Shown here: piece after piece, positions 20,891 through 26,639 of the stretch | How the letters are laid out: each line of letters begins with the position of its first letter | Numbering within the stretch: position 1 is the stretch's first letter | NCBI GenBank assembly: GCA_036563665.1 | Contig: DATCLY010000043.1 | Span: forward strand, 7,012-71,011 | Direction: 5' to 3' | DNA length: 64,000 bases | DNA from: Gammaproteobacteria bacterium | GTDB lineage: Bacteria; Pseudomonadota; Gammaproteobacteria; Steroidobacterales; Rariloculaceae | Translations under genes and position numbers: made by a program | Notes under the pieces: model-generated | Seen by the model: only the letters and a program-made list of their open reading frames with translations | What the model was told of the DNA's origin: nothing | Databases searched by the model: none

Positions 20891-21505
20891 TCAGAGCAGC
20901 CCCTCGAGAACGCTCCACACGTTCTCGAGCATGCGCGGCTGGCCGGCCGCGTTCGGATGGATGCCGTCCGCCTGCATGAGGCTCGGGTCGAGCGCCACGC
21001 CTTCGAGCAGGAACGGCACGAGGGGCACGTCGTAGCGCTCCGCGAGCTCCGCGTAGACGTTGGCGAGGGCGGTGGTGTAGGCGCTGCCGTAGTTCGGCGG
21101 CAGCCGGATGCCGGCGAGCAGCACCATCGCGCCGTGGGCCTGGGCGAGCTCGATCATGCGCGCCAGGTTGTCGCGCAGCGTCTGCACGGGCAGGCCCCGG
21201 AGGCCGTCGTTGCCGCCGAGCTCGATGATCACCCACGCGGGCGCGTAGGTCTCGATGAGCTTCGGCAGACGCGCGAGGCCGCCGGCCGAGGTGTCGCCGG
21301 CGATGCTGGCGTTCACGACCTCATATTCGTACCCTTGCGTGCGCAGGCGCTCATCCAGCATCGCTACCCAGGATTGCTCCGCGGCCAGCCCGTAGCCGCT
21401 GCTCAGCGAGTCGCCTACCACGACGATCGTCGCCTCGGCCCGCGTGAGCGCGGGCGTGGAGATCAGTGCGGTCGCCGCCGCGGCCGCGAGGAAGAGTCGA
21501 CGCAT
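20891..21505 (-). CDS. tesA: Arylesterase / acyl-CoA thioesterase I (GDSL-SGNH)
   Basis: Signal peptide, VVGDSLSSGYG, NASIAGDT, ELGGNDGLRG and DGIHPN. ATG at 21505. Confidence 0.95.
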   Translation of the reverse strand: MRRLFLAAAAATALISTPALTRAEATIVVVGDSLSSGYGLAAEQSWVAMLDERLRTQGYEYEVVNASIAGDTSAGGLARLPKLIETYAPAWVIIELGGNDGLRGLPVQTLRDNLARMIELAQAHGAMVLLAGIRLPPNYGSAYTTALANVYAELAERYDVPLVPFLLEGVALDPSLMQADGIHPNAAGQPRMLENVWSVLEGLL

Positions 21506-22202
21506 GAGCACCCGAGAGGATTTGCTGCGAGCCGAGAGCTTGACGAAAAAGGTTACCAGCCCCGAAGGCGAGCTGACCATCCTCGACGACGTGAGCCTCG
21601 CCATCGCGCGGGGCGAGACCGCGGCCATCGTGGGGCCTTCGGGCGCGGGCAAGTCGACGCTGCTCGCGTTGCTCGCGGGCCTGGACGAGCCGTCGTCCGG
21701 GCGCGTGTGGCTGAACGGGGTGGAGCTCACGGCGCTCGACGAGGACGGGCGCGCGGCGCTGCGCAATCGCGAAGTGGGCTTCATCTTCCAGTCGTTCCAC
21801 CTGTTACCGTCGCTCACGGCGCTCGAGAACGTGCTGCTGCCGCTCGAGCTCGCCGGCGCCGCCCATGCGGCCGAGCGCGCGCGCCGGGCGCTCGCCGAGG
21901 TGGGCCTCGAGCACCGTCTCAAGCACTATCCGCGGCAGCTCTCCGGCGGAGAGAAGCAGCGGGTCGCCATCGCCCGCGCGTTCGTGACGGAGCCGTCGCT
22001 GCTGTTCGCGGACGAGCCTACGGGCAACTTGGACAACAAGACGGGCGCCCGGATTCTGAACCTGCTGTTCGACCTGAACGCCGCCGCCGGCACCACGCTC
22101 GTGCTCGTCACCCACGACCTCGACGCCGCCGCCCGCTGCAACCGCATCATCGAGCTCGCCGCCGGCCGCATCGCCTCCTCCACCGCCCCCGCGCCCGCGT
22201 AA
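21504..22202 (+). CDS. ybbA: YbbA-type ABC transporter ATP-binding protein
   Basis: GPSGAGKSTLL, VGFIFQSFHLLP, LSGGEKQRVAIARA and LFADEPTGNLD. Divergent and overlapping with tesA as in enterics. Confidence 0.9.
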   Translation: MSTREDLLRAESLTKKVTSPEGELTILDDVSLAIARGETAAIVGPSGAGKSTLLALLAGLDEPSSGRVWLNGVELTALDEDGRAALRNREVGFIFQSFHLLPSLTALENVLLPLELAGAAHAAERARRALAEVGLEHRLKHYPRQLSGGEKQRVAIARAFVTEPSLLFADEPTGNLDNKTGARILNLLFDLNAAAGTTLVLVTHDLDAAARCNRIIELAAGRIASSTAPAPA

Positions 22203-22300
22203 GCGGCTCGCCCCTGGGGCCGGCGTCCGCAGGCGGGCCTGTGGACGGCTTGCTGCGTGGCTCGACGGCCGAATGTGAAGACGATTCGGCGACAGCGGCA

Positions 22301-22419
22301 GGCGGACCTGCCTGACCTGGCCCCATGCGGGGACGGCGTGAATCCATCCCTGGAGCCTCGCGCGGCGCACGTCCTGTGCGCCGCGCGCCCCGCATGGGGC
22401 CAGGTCAGGCAGGTCCGCC
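22301..22419 (+). repeat. 119-bp hairpin/MITE-like element A: 32-bp perfect inverted repeat around a 55-nt structured core
   Basis: GGCGGACCTGCCTGACCTGGCCCCATGCGGGG (22301-22332) / exact reverse complement (22388-22419). Core contains TCCA-TCCC-TGGA and a 12-bp CGCGCGGCGCAC/GTGCGCCGCGCG stem. No target-site duplication seen. Confidence 0.85.
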
Positions 22420-22560
22420 GATCCCGACCCGCGTCCCGCGCCCCGGTTTCGTGCCGCCGAAGACGAGGACCGCGAGAGACACGCCGCGGCAACACCGAGC
22501 GCCCGACGCGCCACCGACGCCTACGCGCGACACTGCACGGACGCCCAGCGCGAGCGCGCA

Positions 22561-22631
22561 GACGTCTCAGCGCGGCGCGGACGTCCAACGCGACGCCCCG
22601 CGGACGTCAAACGCGACGCGCTGCAGACGTC
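22561..22631. repeat. Degenerate ~23-bp tandem repeat with GACGTC cores
   Basis: CGCGGACGTCCAACGCGACGC (22576-22596) and CGCGGACGTCAAACGCGACGC (22599-22619). GACGTC at 22561, 22580, 22603 and 22626. Confidence 0.6.
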
Positions 22632-22647
22632 GAAGAGGCGACGTGGA

Positions 22648-22742
22648 TCGCGATGGCCTGCTCCAGGGCGCTCGCGCGCAGGGATGCGCGCGCGCGAGCT
22701 ACAGGGACGTATTCACCGCGTCCCTGGAGCAGGCCATCGCGA
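22648..22742 (-). repeat. 95-bp hairpin element B: 21-bp perfect inverted repeat around a 53-nt core homologous to element A (opposite strand)
   Basis: TCGCGATGGCCTGCTCCAGGG (22648-22668) / CCCTGGAGCAGGCCATCGCGA (22722-22742). The minus-strand core ACGCGGTGAATACGTCCCTGTAGCTCGCGCG...GCATCCCTGC aligns with the element A core. Confidence 0.85.
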
Positions 22743-22896
22743 GCCGCGTCGCCGCCCGCGATGAGGTCGACCGCGTCGCACCCGCCAGCGCCCACCCGCG
22801 TCGCGCCTGCGCACACGTCCACCCGTCGCACGCGCCACACGCAGGCGCGTCGCGCTCGGACACGCAGGCGCAACGCGCGACGAAGCAAGGAGAAGG

Positions 22897-23871
22897 TCAG
22901 ACGACGCGGCGGAGGCGCTCGCCGCGGAGGTAGGCGGCGATGTTCTCGGTGACCTGGTCCAAAGCGCGCTGGCGCGCCTCCTTCGCCGCCCAGGCGATGT
23001 GGGGCGTCACGATGAGGTTCGGCAGCTCCGCCGCCGCGCGCAGCAACACGTCGTCGGGCGTCGGCGGCTCCGTCGGGAGCACGTCGATGCCGGCCCCGGC
23101 GAGGCGCCCTTCCCGCAGCGCTTCGACCAGCGCCTCGTTGTCGACCAGCGCCCCGCGGGCCGTGTTGATCAGCAGCGCGTCGCGCTTCATGCGGCCGAGC
23201 TCCGCCCGTCCGATCATGTGGTGCGTCGCCTCCGTCAGCGGGCAGTGGAGCGTCAGCACGTCCGCCTGCTCGAGCACCGTCTCGAACGGCACGCGGCCCG
23301 ACGGCACCTGGTCGGGCGCGAGCCCGCGGCGCGCGGCCACGGCCAGGCGCATGCCCAGCGACTCCCCGAGCCGCCCCACCGCCTGCCCGAGCGAGCCGTA
23401 GCCGATGATCCCGAGCGTCCGTCCCGCGAGTTCGCGGATCGGGTAGTCGAACAGCGCGAAGGAGCGGCTGCGGGTCCACTCGCCGCCCACGACCAGCGCG
23501 TGATACCGGCCGACGTGCTGCGTGAGCCCGAGCACCAGCGCGAACACGTGCTGCACCACCGAGGTGCTGCAGTAGTCCCGGATGTTGGCGACGGCCACGC
23601 CGCGCTCGCGGGCGACGGCGGTGGCCACGTTGTCCGTGCCCGTGGCCGACACGACGATGAGCTCGAGGTCCGGAGCCCCGGCGATGGCGTCGCCGCTGAT
23701 CGGCGCCTTGTTGGTGATGGCGATCTTGCAGTCGCGGATCCGCTCCGCCACCTCCGCGGGCGTCGAGTACGGGTAATACTCCGCATCGACCAGCGCATCG
23801 AGCTTGCCGGTATCGATCCCGGGCCCGAGCGTGGCGGCGTCCAAAAAGACGGTTTTCGGTCGGGTCGCCAT
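22897..23871 (-). CDS. hprA: D-glycerate / hydroxypyruvate reductase (D-2-hydroxyacid dehydrogenase)
   Basis: VFLDAATL, ITNKAPI, SATGTDNV, ELAGRTLGIIGYGSLG, LHCPLT, INTARGALVD and TPHIAW. ATG 23871 within the long ORF 22897..26805. Confidence 0.9.
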   Translation of the reverse strand: MATRPKTVFLDAATLGPGIDTGKLDALVDAEYYPYSTPAEVAERIRDCKIAITNKAPISGDAIAGAPDLELIVVSATGTDNVATAVARERGVAVANIRDYCSTSVVQHVFALVLGLTQHVGRYHALVVGGEWTRSRSFALFDYPIRELAGRTLGIIGYGSLGQAVGRLGESLGMRLAVAARRGLAPDQVPSGRVPFETVLEQADVLTLHCPLTEATHHMIGRAELGRMKRDALLINTARGALVDNEALVEALREGRLAGAGIDVLPTEPPTPDDVLLRAAAELPNLIVTPHIAWAAKEARQRALDQVTENIAAYLRGERLRRVV

Positions 23872-23903
23872 GGCGACCAAGCTTACACCACGGCGGCGCG
23901 CGC

Positions 23904-26639
23904 TCAGCCGGTGCTCTGCATCCCGTGCGCGATGCCGTTCACGCTCGCGAGCAGCGCCTCGAGCAGCGCGTCCGCGGGCCGGCCCGCGCGGCGCCAGCGC
24001 GCGAGCAGGTTCACTTGAAGAAAACTCATCGGATCGACGTAGGGATTGCGCAGCCTGATGGAGCGCGCGAGCGTGCGCGACTCCTCGAGCAGCTCGCTCT
24101 GGCCGGAGAGCTTGAGCACGAGCTCCACCGCGCGATCGTACTCGGCGCGGATCGCCGGGAAGAACCGCTCGTGCAGCGGCCCCGCGAGGCGCGAGTACTG
24201 CTCCGCCACGTCGAGGTCGGCCTTGGCGAGCGCGGTGGCGGCATCGGACACGAGCACGCGGAAGAAGTGCCAGCGCTGGAACATGTCGTGCAGAGCCTCC
24301 TCGCCGTAGCGCTCGATGCCGTGCGCGAGGCCCGATGCGAAGCCGAACCAGGCGGGCAGCAGGCAGCGCGTCTGCGTCCACGCGAAGGCCCACGCCACCG
24401 CGTGCAGCTCCTCGATGCTCGTCGCCTCTTCGCCCGCGCCGCGCCGTGAGGTCACGCCAAGCCGCTCGATCACGTCGATGGGCGTCGCCGCGCGGAAGTA
24501 GGCGAAGAAGTCGCTCGAGTCGTACACGAGCGCCTGATACGTCTCGCGGCTGCGCTCCGCCATCGCTTCCATGATCTCGAACCACCGGGCCTCGCCGTCG
24601 TGCTCGGACGCGGGAAGCCCCGTCACGAGGATCACGGAGGAGAGGGTCTGCTCGAGGCTGCGCAGCGCGATGCCGCGCAGGCCGTATTTCTCGTTGATGG
24701 TCTCGCCCGGCTCGGTCATCCGCAGCCGCCCCGCGACGGCGCCGCGCGGGGCGGCGAGCACGGCCTCGTGCAGCCGGCCGCCGCCGCGGCTCACGGTGCC
24801 GCCCCGGCCGTGGAACAGCGTGAGCTCCACGCCGAGCCGCCCGAGCGTGGCGACCAGCGCGCGCTGCGCCTGGTGCACGGTCCAACGGGCCGACATGAGG
24901 CCGCCGTCCTTGGCGCTGTCGGAGTAGCCGACCATCACGATCTGGCGATCGCCGCGCGAGCGCAGGTGTCGCCGATAACGCTCGTCGCGGACCAGCCGCT
25001 CCATGATCGTGGGCGCGTTGGCCAGGTCCTCCACCGTCTCGAAGAGCGGCGCGACGTCGAGCGCCACGTCGTCGCCGGGCCGGCCCAGGTGTCCCCAGTG
25101 CGCGAGCAGCAGCACCGACAGCACGTCGTCGGGGCCGTGCGTTCTGCCGACGATGTAGGGGCCGATCGAATCGGGGCCGTACTTGCGCCGGGCGTGAGCG
25201 ATGGCCTGGAACACGCCGAGCGTGCGGCGCGCCTCGGACGACAGCGTGCCGAGCGGCGACTCGCGGCGCTCGAGCGCCTCGTCGAGGCGCCGCGTGCGCT
25301 CCTCGCTGCCGAGCTCGAGCCAGCGCGCCTCCTGCAGCCCTTCGCCCACCACGCGCCGGTGCGCGAGCGCGTTCTGCTTGATGTCGAGCGTGGCCACGTG
25401 GAAGCCGAAGGTCTGCGCCCTGCGGAGCAGCCGCTGCACCGCGAACAGCCCCGCGTTGCGGCCCTTGTTGGCGCGCAAGCTGTCCGCGATGGCCTCGATG
25501 TCGGCGATGAACTCCTGCGGCGATTCGTACGGGAACGCGGCGTCGTCGTAGGTGGCCTTGAGCCGCGCGGCCACGAGCCGCAGGAAGACCCGATACGGCA
25601 TGTCGCGGTGGCGCGCCGGCACGGAGGCCGCGGCTTCGGGGAAGTGCCCGGCGTAGAGACGGCTGCGGCTCTTGATCTCCTCCGCCACACCGATCCGGCT
25701 CTCGCTCTGCGAGAGATCGCGCGCGAGGTAGTGGCACTCCTTGTAATAGAGGTCGAGGATCACGGCCCGGTGCCGCGCGAGCGTCTCGCGGATGCTCTTC
25801 GCGGTGACGTCGGGGTCGCCGTCGAGGTCGCCGCCCACCCACGAGCAGAAGCGCACCACCGTCGGCACGCGAATCCGGCCCGCGTGCTCGGGGAACACGG
25901 CCGCGAGTGCGCTCTCGAGGCTCTCGTAGAACGCCGGGATCACGCGATAGACCACTTCCGTGAGGAAGAACAGCACCTGCTCGGCCTCGTCGCGCAGCCG
26001 CGCCCCGTGCGCCTTGTGCTCCGCCGTCTGCCAGGCGGTGGTCATCTCCATGCGGATGCGGCCGAGCGTCGACTCGAGCTCCTGCGGCGTCAGGTAGGGG
26101 TCGAGCATGTCCACGAGGTGCCTGGCGATCCGCTGCTGCTTGCGGAGCAGCGTGCGACGCGTGACGTCCGTCGGATGCGCCGTGAAGACGGGCTCCACGC
26201 AGATGCGCCCCACCACGCGCTCGATCTCGTCCGCGTCCACCCCCGCGGCCTTGAGCCGGCTCAGGATGTCGACGAAACCGAAGGGCTGCGGCGCCTTCGC
26301 GTCGCGCAGGTACTCCCGGCGCCGCCGGATGCGGTGCACCTTCTCCGCCAGGTTGACCACCTGGAAGTAGGTGGAGAAGGCGCGGATGAGCTCGCGGGCC
26401 GTGCTCGGCGCGAGCGCTCCGAGCACCTCGGCGAGCTTGCCGTGGGCCGCGGGGTCCCCTTCGCGCCGGGCGATGGCGGCGCGCCGGGCGGCCTCCACGA
26501 GGTCGAAGAGCGCCTCGCCGCCTTGCTCGCGCACGAGCTCCCCCACGAGCTCGCCCAGGCGATGCACGTCCTCGCGCAGCGCGCGATCTTTCTCGGCGAA
26601 GAAGAGGTTGGCGCGGGCCGGCGGGGTAGGAGTGGCCAT
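23904..26639 (-). CDS. ppc: Phosphoenolpyruvate carboxylase family protein with divergent active-site motifs
   Basis: VFTAHPT, APLFET, MVGYSDSAKDGG, FHGRGGTVSRGGG and RNPYVDP are intact. GGDLDGDP, TEPGE, LHAVAW and the C-terminal QSTG deviate from consensus. Confidence 0.92.
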   Translation of the reverse strand: MATPTPPARANLFFAEKDRALREDVHRLGELVGELVREQGGEALFDLVEAARRAAIARREGDPAAHGKLAEVLGALAPSTARELIRAFSTYFQVVNLAEKVHRIRRRREYLRDAKAPQPFGFVDILSRLKAAGVDADEIERVVGRICVEPVFTAHPTDVTRRTLLRKQQRIARHLVDMLDPYLTPQELESTLGRIRMEMTTAWQTAEHKAHGARLRDEAEQVLFFLTEVVYRVIPAFYESLESALAAVFPEHAGRIRVPTVVRFCSWVGGDLDGDPDVTAKSIRETLARHRAVILDLYYKECHYLARDLSQSESRIGVAEEIKSRSRLYAGHFPEAAASVPARHRDMPYRVFLRLVAARLKATYDDAAFPYESPQEFIADIEAIADSLRANKGRNAGLFAVQRLLRRAQTFGFHVATLDIKQNALAHRRVVGEGLQEARWLELGSEERTRRLDEALERRESPLGTLSSEARRTLGVFQAIAHARRKYGPDSIGPYIVGRTHGPDDVLSVLLLAHWGHLGRPGDDVALDVAPLFETVEDLANAPTIMERLVRDERYRRHLRSRGDRQIVMVGYSDSAKDGGLMSARWTVHQAQRALVATLGRLGVELTLFHGRGGTVSRGGGRLHEAVLAAPRGAVAGRLRMTEPGETINEKYGLRGIALRSLEQTLSSVILVTGLPASEHDGEARWFEIMEAMAERSRETYQALVYDSSDFFAYFRAATPIDVIERLGVTSRRGAGEEATSIEELHAVAWAFAWTQTRCLLPAWFGFASGLAHGIERYGEEALHDMFQRWHFFRVLVSDAATALAKADLDVAEQYSRLAGPLHERFFPAIRAEYDRAVELVLKLSGQSELLEESRTLARSIRLRNPYVDPMSFLQVNLLARWRRAGRPADALLEALLASVNGIAHGMQSTG

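What the first reader, a model, noticed from the sequence alone, without database searches (positions are those of the whole stretch)
22301..22742. Twin elements: a conserved, covarying two-hairpin core wrapped in unrelated perfect inverted-repeat arms
Seen: element A (+) core ACGGCGTGAATCCATCCCTGGAGCCTCGCGCGGCGCACGTCCTGTGCGCCGCGCG and element B (-) core ACGCGGTGAATACGTCCCTGTAGCTCGCGCGCGCGCATCCCTGCGCGCGAGCG are clearly homologous. Both form GTGAA, then a small hairpin with a TCCC loop (TCCA/TGGA versus TACG/TGTA, compensatory with a G-T wobble), then a longer hairpin with a GTCCT/TCCC loop. Yet their flanking arms are perfect (32 and 21 bp) and share little beyond the inner GGG. Ordinary MITEs conserve the termini and let the middle drift; this is the reverse. 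Inference: a single-stranded (RNA or ssDNA) mobile or structural element whose arms are regenerated from local sequence, or kept perfect by intra-strand conversion, with the core as the protein-recognition site. I recall similar GTGAA..CATCCCTG..CATCCCTG repeats in other Gammaproteobacteria but know no mechanism or mobilising enzyme, so this is the best candidate here for an undescribed system.
Basis: partly seen in the sequence, partly recalled or inferred. Interest (0 to 1): 0.72.

Follow-up and report, generated by a model that had tools for sequence, protein, structure and literature searches.

The report
Palindromic repeat family with conserved two-hairpin core
The two "twin" hairpins are copies of an undescribed, genus-wide family of small non-coding palindromic repeats, akin to REP/REPIN elements, that insert as whole units; their conserved centre carries two textbook CsrA-protein binding loops on one strand, and whether that protein really binds them is untested.

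Summary
Elements A (22301-22419) and B (22637-22753) are real. They share a covarying two-hairpin core and have different, almost perfectly complementary arms.

They are two of about 62 copies in this genome. Every one of 22 congeneric genomes carries 1-49 copies. No Rfam family matches.

Across the genus the core stays about 73% identical, while arm positions 9-28 are near random (35% against 29% expected). Within each copy the arms pair at about 95%.

- Identical arms recur at 11-17 loci in three subfamilies of this genome.
- No palindrome with these arms exists without a core.
- In at least 9 filled-versus-empty orthologous sites, the empty site has no arm and no joined palindrome.

So the whole hairpin is the inserted unit. 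The arms then drift while staying complementary.

No RAYT gene accompanies the family.

Arm mismatches are strongly strand-biased (A.C 77 against G.T 13). On that strand both hairpin tips read AC-A(N)GGAN-GU, the CsrA/RsmA binding consensus, about 24 nt apart.

Verdict: a new variant of the REP/REPIN kind. The possible CsrA-binding RNA function is unproven.

The parts
22301..22419 (+). The strand whose folding is preserved (bottom) is the - strand.
   Evidence: Perfect 32-nt arms (I1). CM R1 scores 86.6 bits. Folding z is -12.4 on + and -13.6 on -.
22301..22332 (+). A, left arm. The inner 15 nt (TGGCCCCATGCGGGG) resemble five other A-type copies. The outer part is unique to this copy.
22333..22387 (+). 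A, core: P2 GGC/GCC (22335-22337 with 22355-22357); GTGAA internal loop (22338-22342); small hairpin 22343-22354; GC hairpin P3 22359-22387 with loop GTCCT. On the - strand the two tips read CCAGGGAUGG and ACAGGACGU.
22388..22419 (+). A, right arm, 100% complementary to the left arm.
22420..22636 (.). Spacer between the twins. Its first ~45 nt (CCGACC.GCGTC.CG.GGC..GTT) are shared with the other A-type copies. Bases 22531-22616 hold 23-nt direct repeats carrying a GACGTC motif; by eye the same motif continues to about 22636, and the repeats look like multiplied copies of the module that flanks B-type elements.
   Evidence: (family D1), alignment, flanks.
22637..22753 (-). Element B. The top strand is the - strand; the folded (bottom) strand is the + strand.
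   Evidence: Arms 32 nt, 94% complementary (I2). CM R1 scores 92.3 bits on -. Folding z is -10.6 on + and -10.2 on -.
22669..22721 (-). B, core. On the + strand: P3 22669-22696 with AGGGAT at 22680-22685; small hairpin TAC-AGGGAC-GTA at 22700-22711; TTCAC at 22712-22716.
   Evidence: (I15).
22221..22247 (+). Degenerate solo arm-like piece (GGCGTCCGCAGGCGGGCCTGTGGACGG). It resembles the outer left flank and arm of the commonest subfamilies and of A (GCAGGCGGACCTG).
   Evidence: (family D8). Judged by eye only.
21444..22202 (+). Upstream flanking gene, an ABC-transporter ATPase. Its stop codon lies 98 nt before A.
22897..23916 (-). Convergent flanking gene, a D-2-hydroxyacid dehydrogenase-like protein. 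Its stop is at 22897-22899, 144 nt from B. The start coordinate is approximate.
   Evidence: translation and tblastn.

Best explanation
A and B are a paired set of copies from a genus-wide family of non-autonomous, REP/REPIN-like palindromic repeats, each about 115-125 nt. They lie with their GC-hairpin ends facing each other.

Shown:
- There are about 62 copies in this genome. All 22 congeners carry copies, as do one sister genus and one other family of the order.
- The copies sit in intergenic DNA, mostly at gene 3' ends.
- The whole hairpin (arms plus core) is what is present or absent at a site.
- The arms fall into subfamilies that burst recently in this genome. Between lineages they are almost randomised yet remain about 95% self-complementary.
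- The core is conserved and all four helices covary.
- Mismatches are strand-biased. On the complement of the GTGAA strand they read as G.U, G.A or G.G.

Inferred:
- The element acts, and is selected, as a folded single strand, RNA or ssDNA, of that complementary strand.
- A mutation in one arm is either reverted or copied to the other arm. This could happen by hairpin-templated repair or by template switching, as known for quasipalindromes. It would let the arms drift at about the neutral rate without losing pairing.
- The core is held by a sequence-specific binding partner. On the folded strand its two tips are AC-A(N)GGAN-GU hexaloop hairpins about 24 nt apart. That is the geometry bound by one CsrA/RsmA dimer, so the best functional guess is a CsrA-binding RNA module.
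- Spread depends on an enzyme supplied in trans that is not a RAYT and was not identified. In this genome 25 of 59 copies travel inside an inverted pair of the main 550-copy REP.
For: Copy number and distribution.

Covariation.

Core versus arm divergence: core identity 0.73; arm positions 9-28 0.35, against 0.29 for shuffles; within-copy pairing 0.949; arms 29-44 nt.

Subfamilies: clusters of 17, 12 and 11 copies, and 54 arm clusters among 106 copies.

No palindromes with these arms lack a core.

Empty orthologous sites lack arms.

Genomic context: 27 of 52 sites lie between convergent genes and only 3 between divergent genes.

Mismatch asymmetry: A.C 77 against G.T 13 events in the arms, p = 3e-12, and 34 against 10 outside the hot spot. 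In the 80-nt core region it is 30 against 3. On the top strand, pyrimidine-pyrimidine mismatches number 38 and purine-purine 8.

GGA motifs: 114 of 115 cores carry two GGA on the bottom strand, 24 nt apart in 84, and both sit in a CA(N)GGANG context in 108.

Published consensus: RUACARGGAUGU; an ANGGAN hexaloop closed by AC/GU; one dimer bridges sites 10-63 nt apart (PMC7652899).

The csrA gene is present in this genome.

REP embedding at fixed distances of 15 and 22 nt.
Against: - No transcript evidence exists for either strand, and no promoter or terminator consensus was found.
- Where genes run in tandem, the GTGAA strand, not the GGA strand, is the sense strand of the upstream gene: 26 of 38 cases. 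Simple read-through would therefore usually make the strand without GGA.
- The conserved mismatch in the GC hairpin is G.A on the GTGAA strand and U.C on the GGA strand. That does not fit 'the GGA strand is always the better fold'.
- A perfect 30-40-bp RNA stem would be an RNase III substrate.
- CsrA is near-universal in the order (40 of 41 genomes), so its presence does not discriminate.
- The mobilising enzyme is unknown, and target duplications could not be assessed because no close strains were available.
- Conversion between the arms is inferred from the pattern, not observed.
Confidence: 0.72

Rival explanations
1. The arms are made anew at each insertion from local target sequence, by inverted duplication of the target, around a mobile ~55-nt core.
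For: - Arms differ in almost every lineage while the core is conserved.
- A's outer arm is unique in this genome.
- A 13-nt stretch of A's left arm resembles sequence 69 nt upstream (family D8).
Against: - Identical 29-32-nt arms occur at 11-17 unrelated loci.
- The upstream look-alike is itself a degenerate copy of the family's shared outer-arm motif (CGCAGGSG), which is found at most copies.
- Empty orthologous sites carry no arm.
- Orthologous copies in two species (L089 and L172) keep the same arms.
Confidence: 0.04
2. Only the core moves, as an IS200/IS605-like single-strand mini-element with two same-strand hairpins. It would insert at the tip of pre-existing hairpins such as terminators or REPs, so the arms would be target DNA.
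For: - The core has two hairpins in direct orientation on one strand, with GTAG before the second in 83 of 115 copies.
- The inner arm ends resemble a short palindromic target (CCNGGR|YCCNGG).
- Intergenic sites that are empty in this genome often hold other small hairpins.
- There is a weak bias for the GTGAA strand to be the sense strand, which is the lagging-strand template of co-oriented genes.
Against: - No palindrome with subfamily arms exists without a core in this genome.
- The hairpins at empty sites are unrelated to the arms at the corresponding filled sites.
- No Y1 transposase is found in this genome or in 16 of 22 congeners, including near-complete long-read assemblies carrying 12-48 copies.
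- The Y1 genes that do exist have their own GGGGACATTCCG inverted ends and no element beside them.
- GTAG is one strand of a helix and covaries, so it is not an invariant tag.
- Mismatches disfavour folding of this strand.
Confidence: 0.08
3. The elements are not mobile. They are a family of functional structured RNA genes or 3'-end stabiliser/terminator hairpins, multiplied by ordinary duplication and kept by selection on RNA structure alone.
For: - Strong covariation, including in the arms.
- Position at gene 3' ends.
- G.U-type mismatch bias on one strand.
- CsrA-like loops.
Against: - There are 11-17 near-identical copies at dispersed loci, and several break contig ends.
- Presence and absence differ between congeners at orthologous sites.
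- Copy number ranges from 1 to 49 within one genus.
- No U-tract follows the stem.
- The orientation bias runs against the GGA strand being the read-through product.
- Function and mobility are not mutually exclusive.
Confidence: 0.12

Closest known systems
REP / BIME / REPIN elements of Proteobacteria (GTAG-tagged palindromes, with RAYT)
   Same: - High-copy, extragenic and mostly downstream of genes.
- An imperfect GC-rich hairpin preceded by GTAG in 72% of copies, with a conserved internal mismatch.
- Inverted pairs with 50-220-nt variable spacers, never tandem, like the HH/TT dimers described in PMC3733652.
- Long hairpin-forming units that replicate as a whole, like REPINs (PMC3116915, PMC3337134).
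- In this genome many copies sit inside an inverted pair of a classic REP.
   Different: - No RAYT in this genome or in most congeners, and no element beside the RAYT-like genes that do exist.
- The conserved part is an asymmetric two-hairpin junction at the centre, not two symmetric REPs.
- The long stem is hypervariable.
- GTAG is part of a covarying helix.
MITEs such as Correia, ERIC or RUP
   Same: - Size of roughly 100-200 nt.
- Terminal inverted repeats.
- Intergenic, with many copies in subfamilies.
- Can fold into long RNA hairpins.
   Different: - MITE termini are conserved because the transposase binds them, and the middle drifts. Here the middle is conserved and most of the arm is free to vary.
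- No parent IS was found.
- No target duplication could be established.
CsrA/RsmA-sequestering RNAs (CsrB, RsmY/Z, RsmU) and high-affinity CsrA hairpins
   Same: On one strand both hairpin tips are A(N)GGAN loops closed by AC/GU. A and GGA are invariant and the N positions vary. The sites lie 24 nt apart, within the 10-63-nt range that one dimer can bridge.
   Different: - Only two sites per unit, clamped by a 30-40-bp stem.
- Dispersed in about 60 copies rather than one to three dedicated genes.
- No promoter identified.
- No Rfam Csr/Rsm match in this region.
- Neither binding nor expression has been tested.
Integron attC sites
   Same: Recombination-type sites in which structure is conserved rather than sequence, acting as a folded single strand with strand-specific features.
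   Different: - attC sites conserve the outer R/L boxes (GTTRRRY) and vary in the centre. Here it is the opposite.
- The elements are not arranged in cassette arrays.
- No GTTRRRY ends are visible in the sequence. This was judged by eye; no formal search was run.

Membership tests
REP/REPIN-RAYT system | Short imperfect palindrome tagged by GTAG (or CGTC) at one end | tested here: inconclusive
   GTAG precedes the GC hairpin in 83 of 115 copies. The tetranucleotide is the 3' strand of the small hairpin and changes with its partner (GGAG, GGGG, GTGG, GCGG).
REP/REPIN-RAYT system | High copy number, extragenic, preferentially downstream of genes | tested here: met
   About 62 copies. Contexts: 27 convergent, 22 tandem and 3 divergent of 52, using a crude GC3-based gene finder.
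REP/REPIN-RAYT system | Inverted dimers (HH/TT), with tandem dimers rare | tested here: met
   17 paired loci, all in the same inverted orientation, plus 2 fused doublets and no tandem pair.
REP/REPIN-RAYT system | A cognate single-copy RAYT (Y1 HUH transposase, PF01797) in the genome, flanked by the repeats | tested here: not met
   No PF01797 hit in this genome. It is absent from 16 of 22 congeners. The three RAYT-like loci examined carry no element and have their own GGGGACATTCCG inverted repeats. Caveat: this genome is a 95-contig draft.
MITE | Conserved terminal inverted repeats matching an autonomous IS, plus target-site duplication | tested here: inconclusive
   Arms are inverted repeats but are only 35% identical between clusters. 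Some subfamilies share outer ends (GTCCCGGCG). No parent IS was sought systematically. Target duplication could not be assessed because the relatives are too distant.
CsrA/RsmA-binding RNA | GGA motifs presented in hairpin loops matching RUACARGGAUGU or an ANGGAN loop, two or more sites 10-63 nt apart | tested here: met
   108 of 115 cores have two CA(N)GGANG sites on the bottom strand, and the spacing is 24 nt in 84. Consensus taken from PMC7652899.
CsrA/RsmA-binding RNA | The RNA of that strand is made and binds CsrA | not testable with these tools
   No RNA run covers the elements. The csrA gene is present.
IS200/IS605-derived mini-elements (PATE) | TnpA (Y1) supplied in trans; left-end and right-end hairpins on the active strand | tested here: not met
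   Two same-strand hairpins exist, but there is no Y1 transposase, and mismatches disfavour folding of that strand.
Any Rfam family | A covariance-model match | tested here: not met
   An E-value-threshold scan of 21500-23500 returned only chance matches to long-hairpin miRNA models, far below their gathering scores.

The most novel reading that the evidence does not exclude
The family could be a dispersed, self-propagating set of CsrA/RsmA decoys. Each copy, when transcribed on its GGA strand, would give a long stem, possibly trimmed by RNase III, capped by two optimal CsrA hairpins that one CsrA dimer could bridge. Some 60 copies would then add about 120 high-affinity sites to the transcriptome. 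They would either buffer CsrA or place the 3' ends of many operons under CsrA control. This would make it a repeat family whose conserved core is a binding site for a global host regulator rather than for a transposase. The free-drifting but self-correcting arms would be a second unusual property.
Probability: 0.2. Interest if true: 0.8.

Novelty: new variant of a known kind. Interest (0 to 1): 0.55.

Why it matters
REP-type repeats are among the commonest non-coding features of bacterial genomes. Outside the RAYT paradigm, how they spread and what they do is still open.

This family offers a clean case in which three things hold together:
1. The enzyme expected from that paradigm is absent.
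2. The selected part is a small asymmetric core, while about 70 nt of stem evolves almost freely without losing pairing. That makes arm-to-arm correction directly testable.
3. The core matches, position by position, the binding site of the global regulator CsrA on exactly the strand that an independent mismatch analysis identifies as the folded one.

If CsrA binding were confirmed, it would link mobile repeats to post-transcriptional global regulation. If it were refuted, the element would still be a well-defined new REP-like family for soil Gammaproteobacteria, and a useful marker that breaks short-read assemblies.

Tried and rejected
- **Rfam scan of both strands.** Only chance hits to long-hairpin models.
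- **RAYT/Y1 transposase as the mobiliser.** Absent or unlinked. The Y1 genes in congeners carry their own short inverted ends.
- **Palindromes with the subfamily arms but no core, in this genome.** None found.
- **Arms as self-folding hairpins.** Some GTCCCGGCG...GCCGGGA arms look internally palindromic, but over 58 distinct arms the fold z-scores do not differ from random genomic 33-mers (Mann-Whitney p = 0.27).
- **Promoter and intrinsic-terminator consensus scan of 22150-22950.** Nothing found.
- **RNA evidence.** No RNA run holds the window locus. One metatranscriptome contig stops at the REP before an element.
- **Population variation in 20 soil metagenomes that hold the locus.** Contigs break inside the arms. 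One low-identity contig joins the two genes with a 30-nt spacer, which is a relative with an empty site.
- **Search for a canonical Rsm-type sRNA as clusters of CA(N)GGANG.** The motif is too common in GC-rich coding DNA to be informative.
- **Mismatch typing inside the GC hairpin with an ad-hoc loop finder.** Unreliable near the loop. The CM-aligned count was used instead.
- **attC, retron and Y-RNA analogies.** Considered and dropped because of architecture and copy number.

Full report
**1. What is at the coordinates**

The 695-nt spacer between a convergent ABC-ATPase gene (stop at 22200-22202) and a 2-hydroxyacid-dehydrogenase-like gene (stop at 22897-22899) holds two long hairpins.

- Element A has perfect 32-nt arms (22301-22332 and 22388-22419) around a 55-nt core.
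- Element B has 32-nt arms that are 94% complementary (22637-22668 and 22722-22753) around a 53-nt core homologous to A's, read on the other strand.
- Both fold 10-13 standard deviations better than dinucleotide shuffles.
- An E-value-threshold Rfam scan of both strands gave only chance hits to long-hairpin models.

**2. It is a family**

The window is part of a 4.14-Mb, 95-contig, 70.5% G+C assembly.

- A regex, an nhmmer profile and a covariance model (R1) each find about 62-69 copies in this genome. Several sit at contig ends.
- R1 finds 1-49 copies in every one of 22 genomes of the same genus. It finds 3 in a sister genus and 14 in one other family of the order. It finds none in 15 further families of the order.
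- The nearest named relatives of the flanking ABC gene are uncultured Gammaproteobacteria and Steroidobacteraceae MAGs.

**3. Architecture and covariation**

- arm (29-44 nt);
- two unpaired bases;
- a 3-bp helix (GSC);
- the internal loop GTGAA, or GCAAG or GGAAG in some copies;
- a 3-bp hairpin with a 6-nt loop (NTCCCT);
- the closing strand of the 3-bp helix;
- a 10-12-bp GC hairpin with loop (A/G)TCC(C)T and a conserved internal G.A mismatch;
- the second arm.

Covariation supports this structure.

| Alignment | Cells that pair | Pairs changed on both sides | Shuffles reaching this |
|---|---|---|---|
| 40 copies, this genome | 95.6% | 17 of 30 | 0 of 500 |
| 85 copies, 14 congeners | 95.9% | 27 of 30 | 0 of 500 |

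- With the pairing partner slid by 1-3 columns, only 30-50% of cells pair.
- The second alignment was fitted to the model, which biases it towards the structure. Even so, the GC-hairpin stem is replaced wholesale in many copies.
- Copies are paralogues, so cells are not independent events.

**4. Are the arms unrelated, and are they local?**

Within this genome the arms fall into a few subfamilies. Clusters of 17, 12 and 11 copies have nearly identical 29-32-nt arms.
- B's arms are a diverged version of the commonest type and share its two conserved mismatches (GCGGCTCGC against GCGATCCAC).
- A's inner arm matches five other copies, with a compensated A:T/T:A change.

- 106 copies fall into 54 arm clusters.
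- Between clusters the core is 73% identical. Arm positions 9-28 are 35% identical, against 29% for composition-matched shuffles.
- Within each copy the arms are 94.9% complementary.

Four tests speak against arms made from local sequence:
1. The same arms occur at many unrelated loci.
2. No arm pair occurs without a 50-55-nt core between the arms.
3. None of 18 congeneric orthologues of the ABC gene has an element nearby. In the two that keep the convergent dehydrogenase gene, the stops are only about 15-30 nt apart and there is no arm.
4. Flanks of 71 loci from relatives were mapped back onto this genome. This gave at least 9 filled-versus-empty pairs. The empty sites hold short unrelated spacers, other small hairpins or classic REPs, and never an arm or a joined palindrome.

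The whole hairpin is therefore the inserted unit.
- Orthologous copies can keep their arms (L089 and L172).
- They can also differ greatly in the middle of the arm, about as much as the surrounding non-coding DNA does (L179 and L174).

This pattern is what arm-to-arm correction would give, with drift at the neutral rate and pairing retained. Template switching at quasipalindromes is an established mutational route of this type (my own knowledge; not tested here).

**5. Higher-order arrangement**

A and B are not a chance pair.
- In this genome an A-type copy followed by an inverted B-type copy recurs at two further loci (C83, C10).
- Two more loci (C32, C7) carry the fused product expected from a deletion between the two GC hairpins.
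- In relatives, 14 of 71 sampled loci carry a second copy within 200 nt, always with the GC-hairpin ends facing each other.
- This mirrors the HH/TT dimers of REPs, in which tandem dimers are rare (PMC3733652).

In this genome 25 of 59 copies also lie inside an inverted pair of the main REP (GTGGGAGCGGCTTTCCAGCCGCGAT, 548-588 copies). The REPs sit at fixed distances of 15 and 22 nt from the element, so the recent bursts were of a larger REPIN-like composite. A and B themselves lack these REPs.

**6. Mobilising enzyme**

- No Y1 HUH transposase (PF01797) is detectable in this genome.
- It is also absent from 16 of 22 congeners. These include near-complete assemblies of 7-70 contigs that carry 12-48 copies.
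- The Y1 genes that exist in congeners have no element within 1.5 kb.
- The one examined in detail is bounded by its own GGGGACATTCCG inverted repeats.

RAYT membership therefore fails. Other enzyme classes were not surveyed, and the mobiliser is unknown.

**7. Which strand folds**

Arm mismatches are strongly biased. Counting each cluster, position and type once, there are on the top strand:
- 77 A.C mismatches against 13 G.T (p = 3e-12), and 34 against 10 outside a mismatch hot spot 20-24 nt from the core;
- 38 pyrimidine-pyrimidine mismatches against 8 purine-purine.

In the CM-aligned 80-nt core region of 85 copies the count is 30 A.C against 3 G.T.

On the complementary ('bottom') strand these become G.U, G.A and G.G, the tolerated non-canonical pairs. 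The expected replication- or transcription-linked C-to-T bias would act in the opposite direction. I therefore read the asymmetry as selection, or strand-specific exposure, acting on the bottom strand as RNA or ssDNA.

One point goes the other way: the conserved mismatch in the GC hairpin is G.A on top and U.C on the bottom.

**8. What the bottom strand shows**

On the bottom strand the two tips read GCGCAC-AGGGAU-GUGCGC and UAC-AGGGAY-GUA.
- 114 of 115 cores have two GGA motifs on this strand, 24 nt apart in 84.
- 108 have both as CA(N)GGANG.
- A and GGA are invariant, both N positions vary, and the closing pairs covary (AC/GU, GC/GC, CC/GG).
- The top strand has 0.25 GGA per core against 2.15 on the bottom.

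This matches the published CsrA SELEX consensus RUACARGGAUGU, the ANGGAN hexaloop closed by AC/GU, and the 10-63-nt window that one dimer can bridge (PMC7652899). A csrA gene is present in this genome, but also in 40 of 41 genomes of the order. No paper in the library links CsrA to REP-type repeats.

Against a simple read-through model:
- In tandem gene contexts the top strand is the sense strand in 26 of 38 cases.
- No promoter consensus was found.
- No RNA data cover the elements.

CsrA binding is therefore a specific, testable hypothesis to which I give about 20%. It is not a finding.

**9. Verdict**

This is a real, apparently undescribed family that works like REP/REPIN elements but fails the RAYT criterion. 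It inverts the usual conservation pattern of MITEs. The added points are that the relevant strand is the opposite one and that its loops look like CsrA sites.

Noticed in passing
Whole genome (e.g. G000 C2:22044, C5:2752); not in the finding's coordinates: A classic Pseudomonas/Xanthomonas-type REP (GTGGGAGCGGCTTTCCAGCCGCGAT) is present in 548-588 copies. Yet no Y1/RAYT transposase is detectable in the assembly.
   Followed up: partly
window 22531-22616 (motif by eye to about 22636): One search found three 23-nt direct repeats carrying a GACGTC motif at 22531-22616. By eye the motif recurs up to B's arm. The repeats resemble the module that flanks B-type and SF2-type copies elsewhere.
   Followed up: no
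L095:1331-1355 and 2228-2250 (congener G002): The Y1 transposase gene of a congener is bounded by 12-bp inverted repeats (GGGGACATTCCG / CGGAATGTCCCC). This looks like the TIR-associated tyrosine transposases described in PMC3733652 rather than a REP-flanked RAYT.
   Followed up: partly
G000 C56:36636-36661 compared with L146, L179 and L174: Three congeners carry an element at the same convergent intergenic site that is empty in this genome. The core is in opposite orientation in one of them, and the arm middles are very different. This could reflect independent insertions at a hot spot or flipping between the arms.
   Followed up: partly
Arms of many copies, 20-24 nt from the core: There is a mismatch hot spot here (15.8% of pairs against about 4% elsewhere), mostly C in the 5' arm opposite A in the 3' arm on the GTGAA strand. 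On the other strand this is a conserved G.U.
   Followed up: partly
G000 C68:97184-97783 and L135: In two species, elements of unrelated arm type and opposite orientation sit just downstream of the same tRNA gene.
   Followed up: no
G000 C7:15945-16006: Where two congeners have an element, this genome has a different perfect hairpin (GGGGCGCGCGC-CAA-GCGCGCGCCCC) preceded by CCCC-GTTTGAAA-GGGG. This suggests turnover of unrelated hairpins at the same gene end.
   Followed up: no
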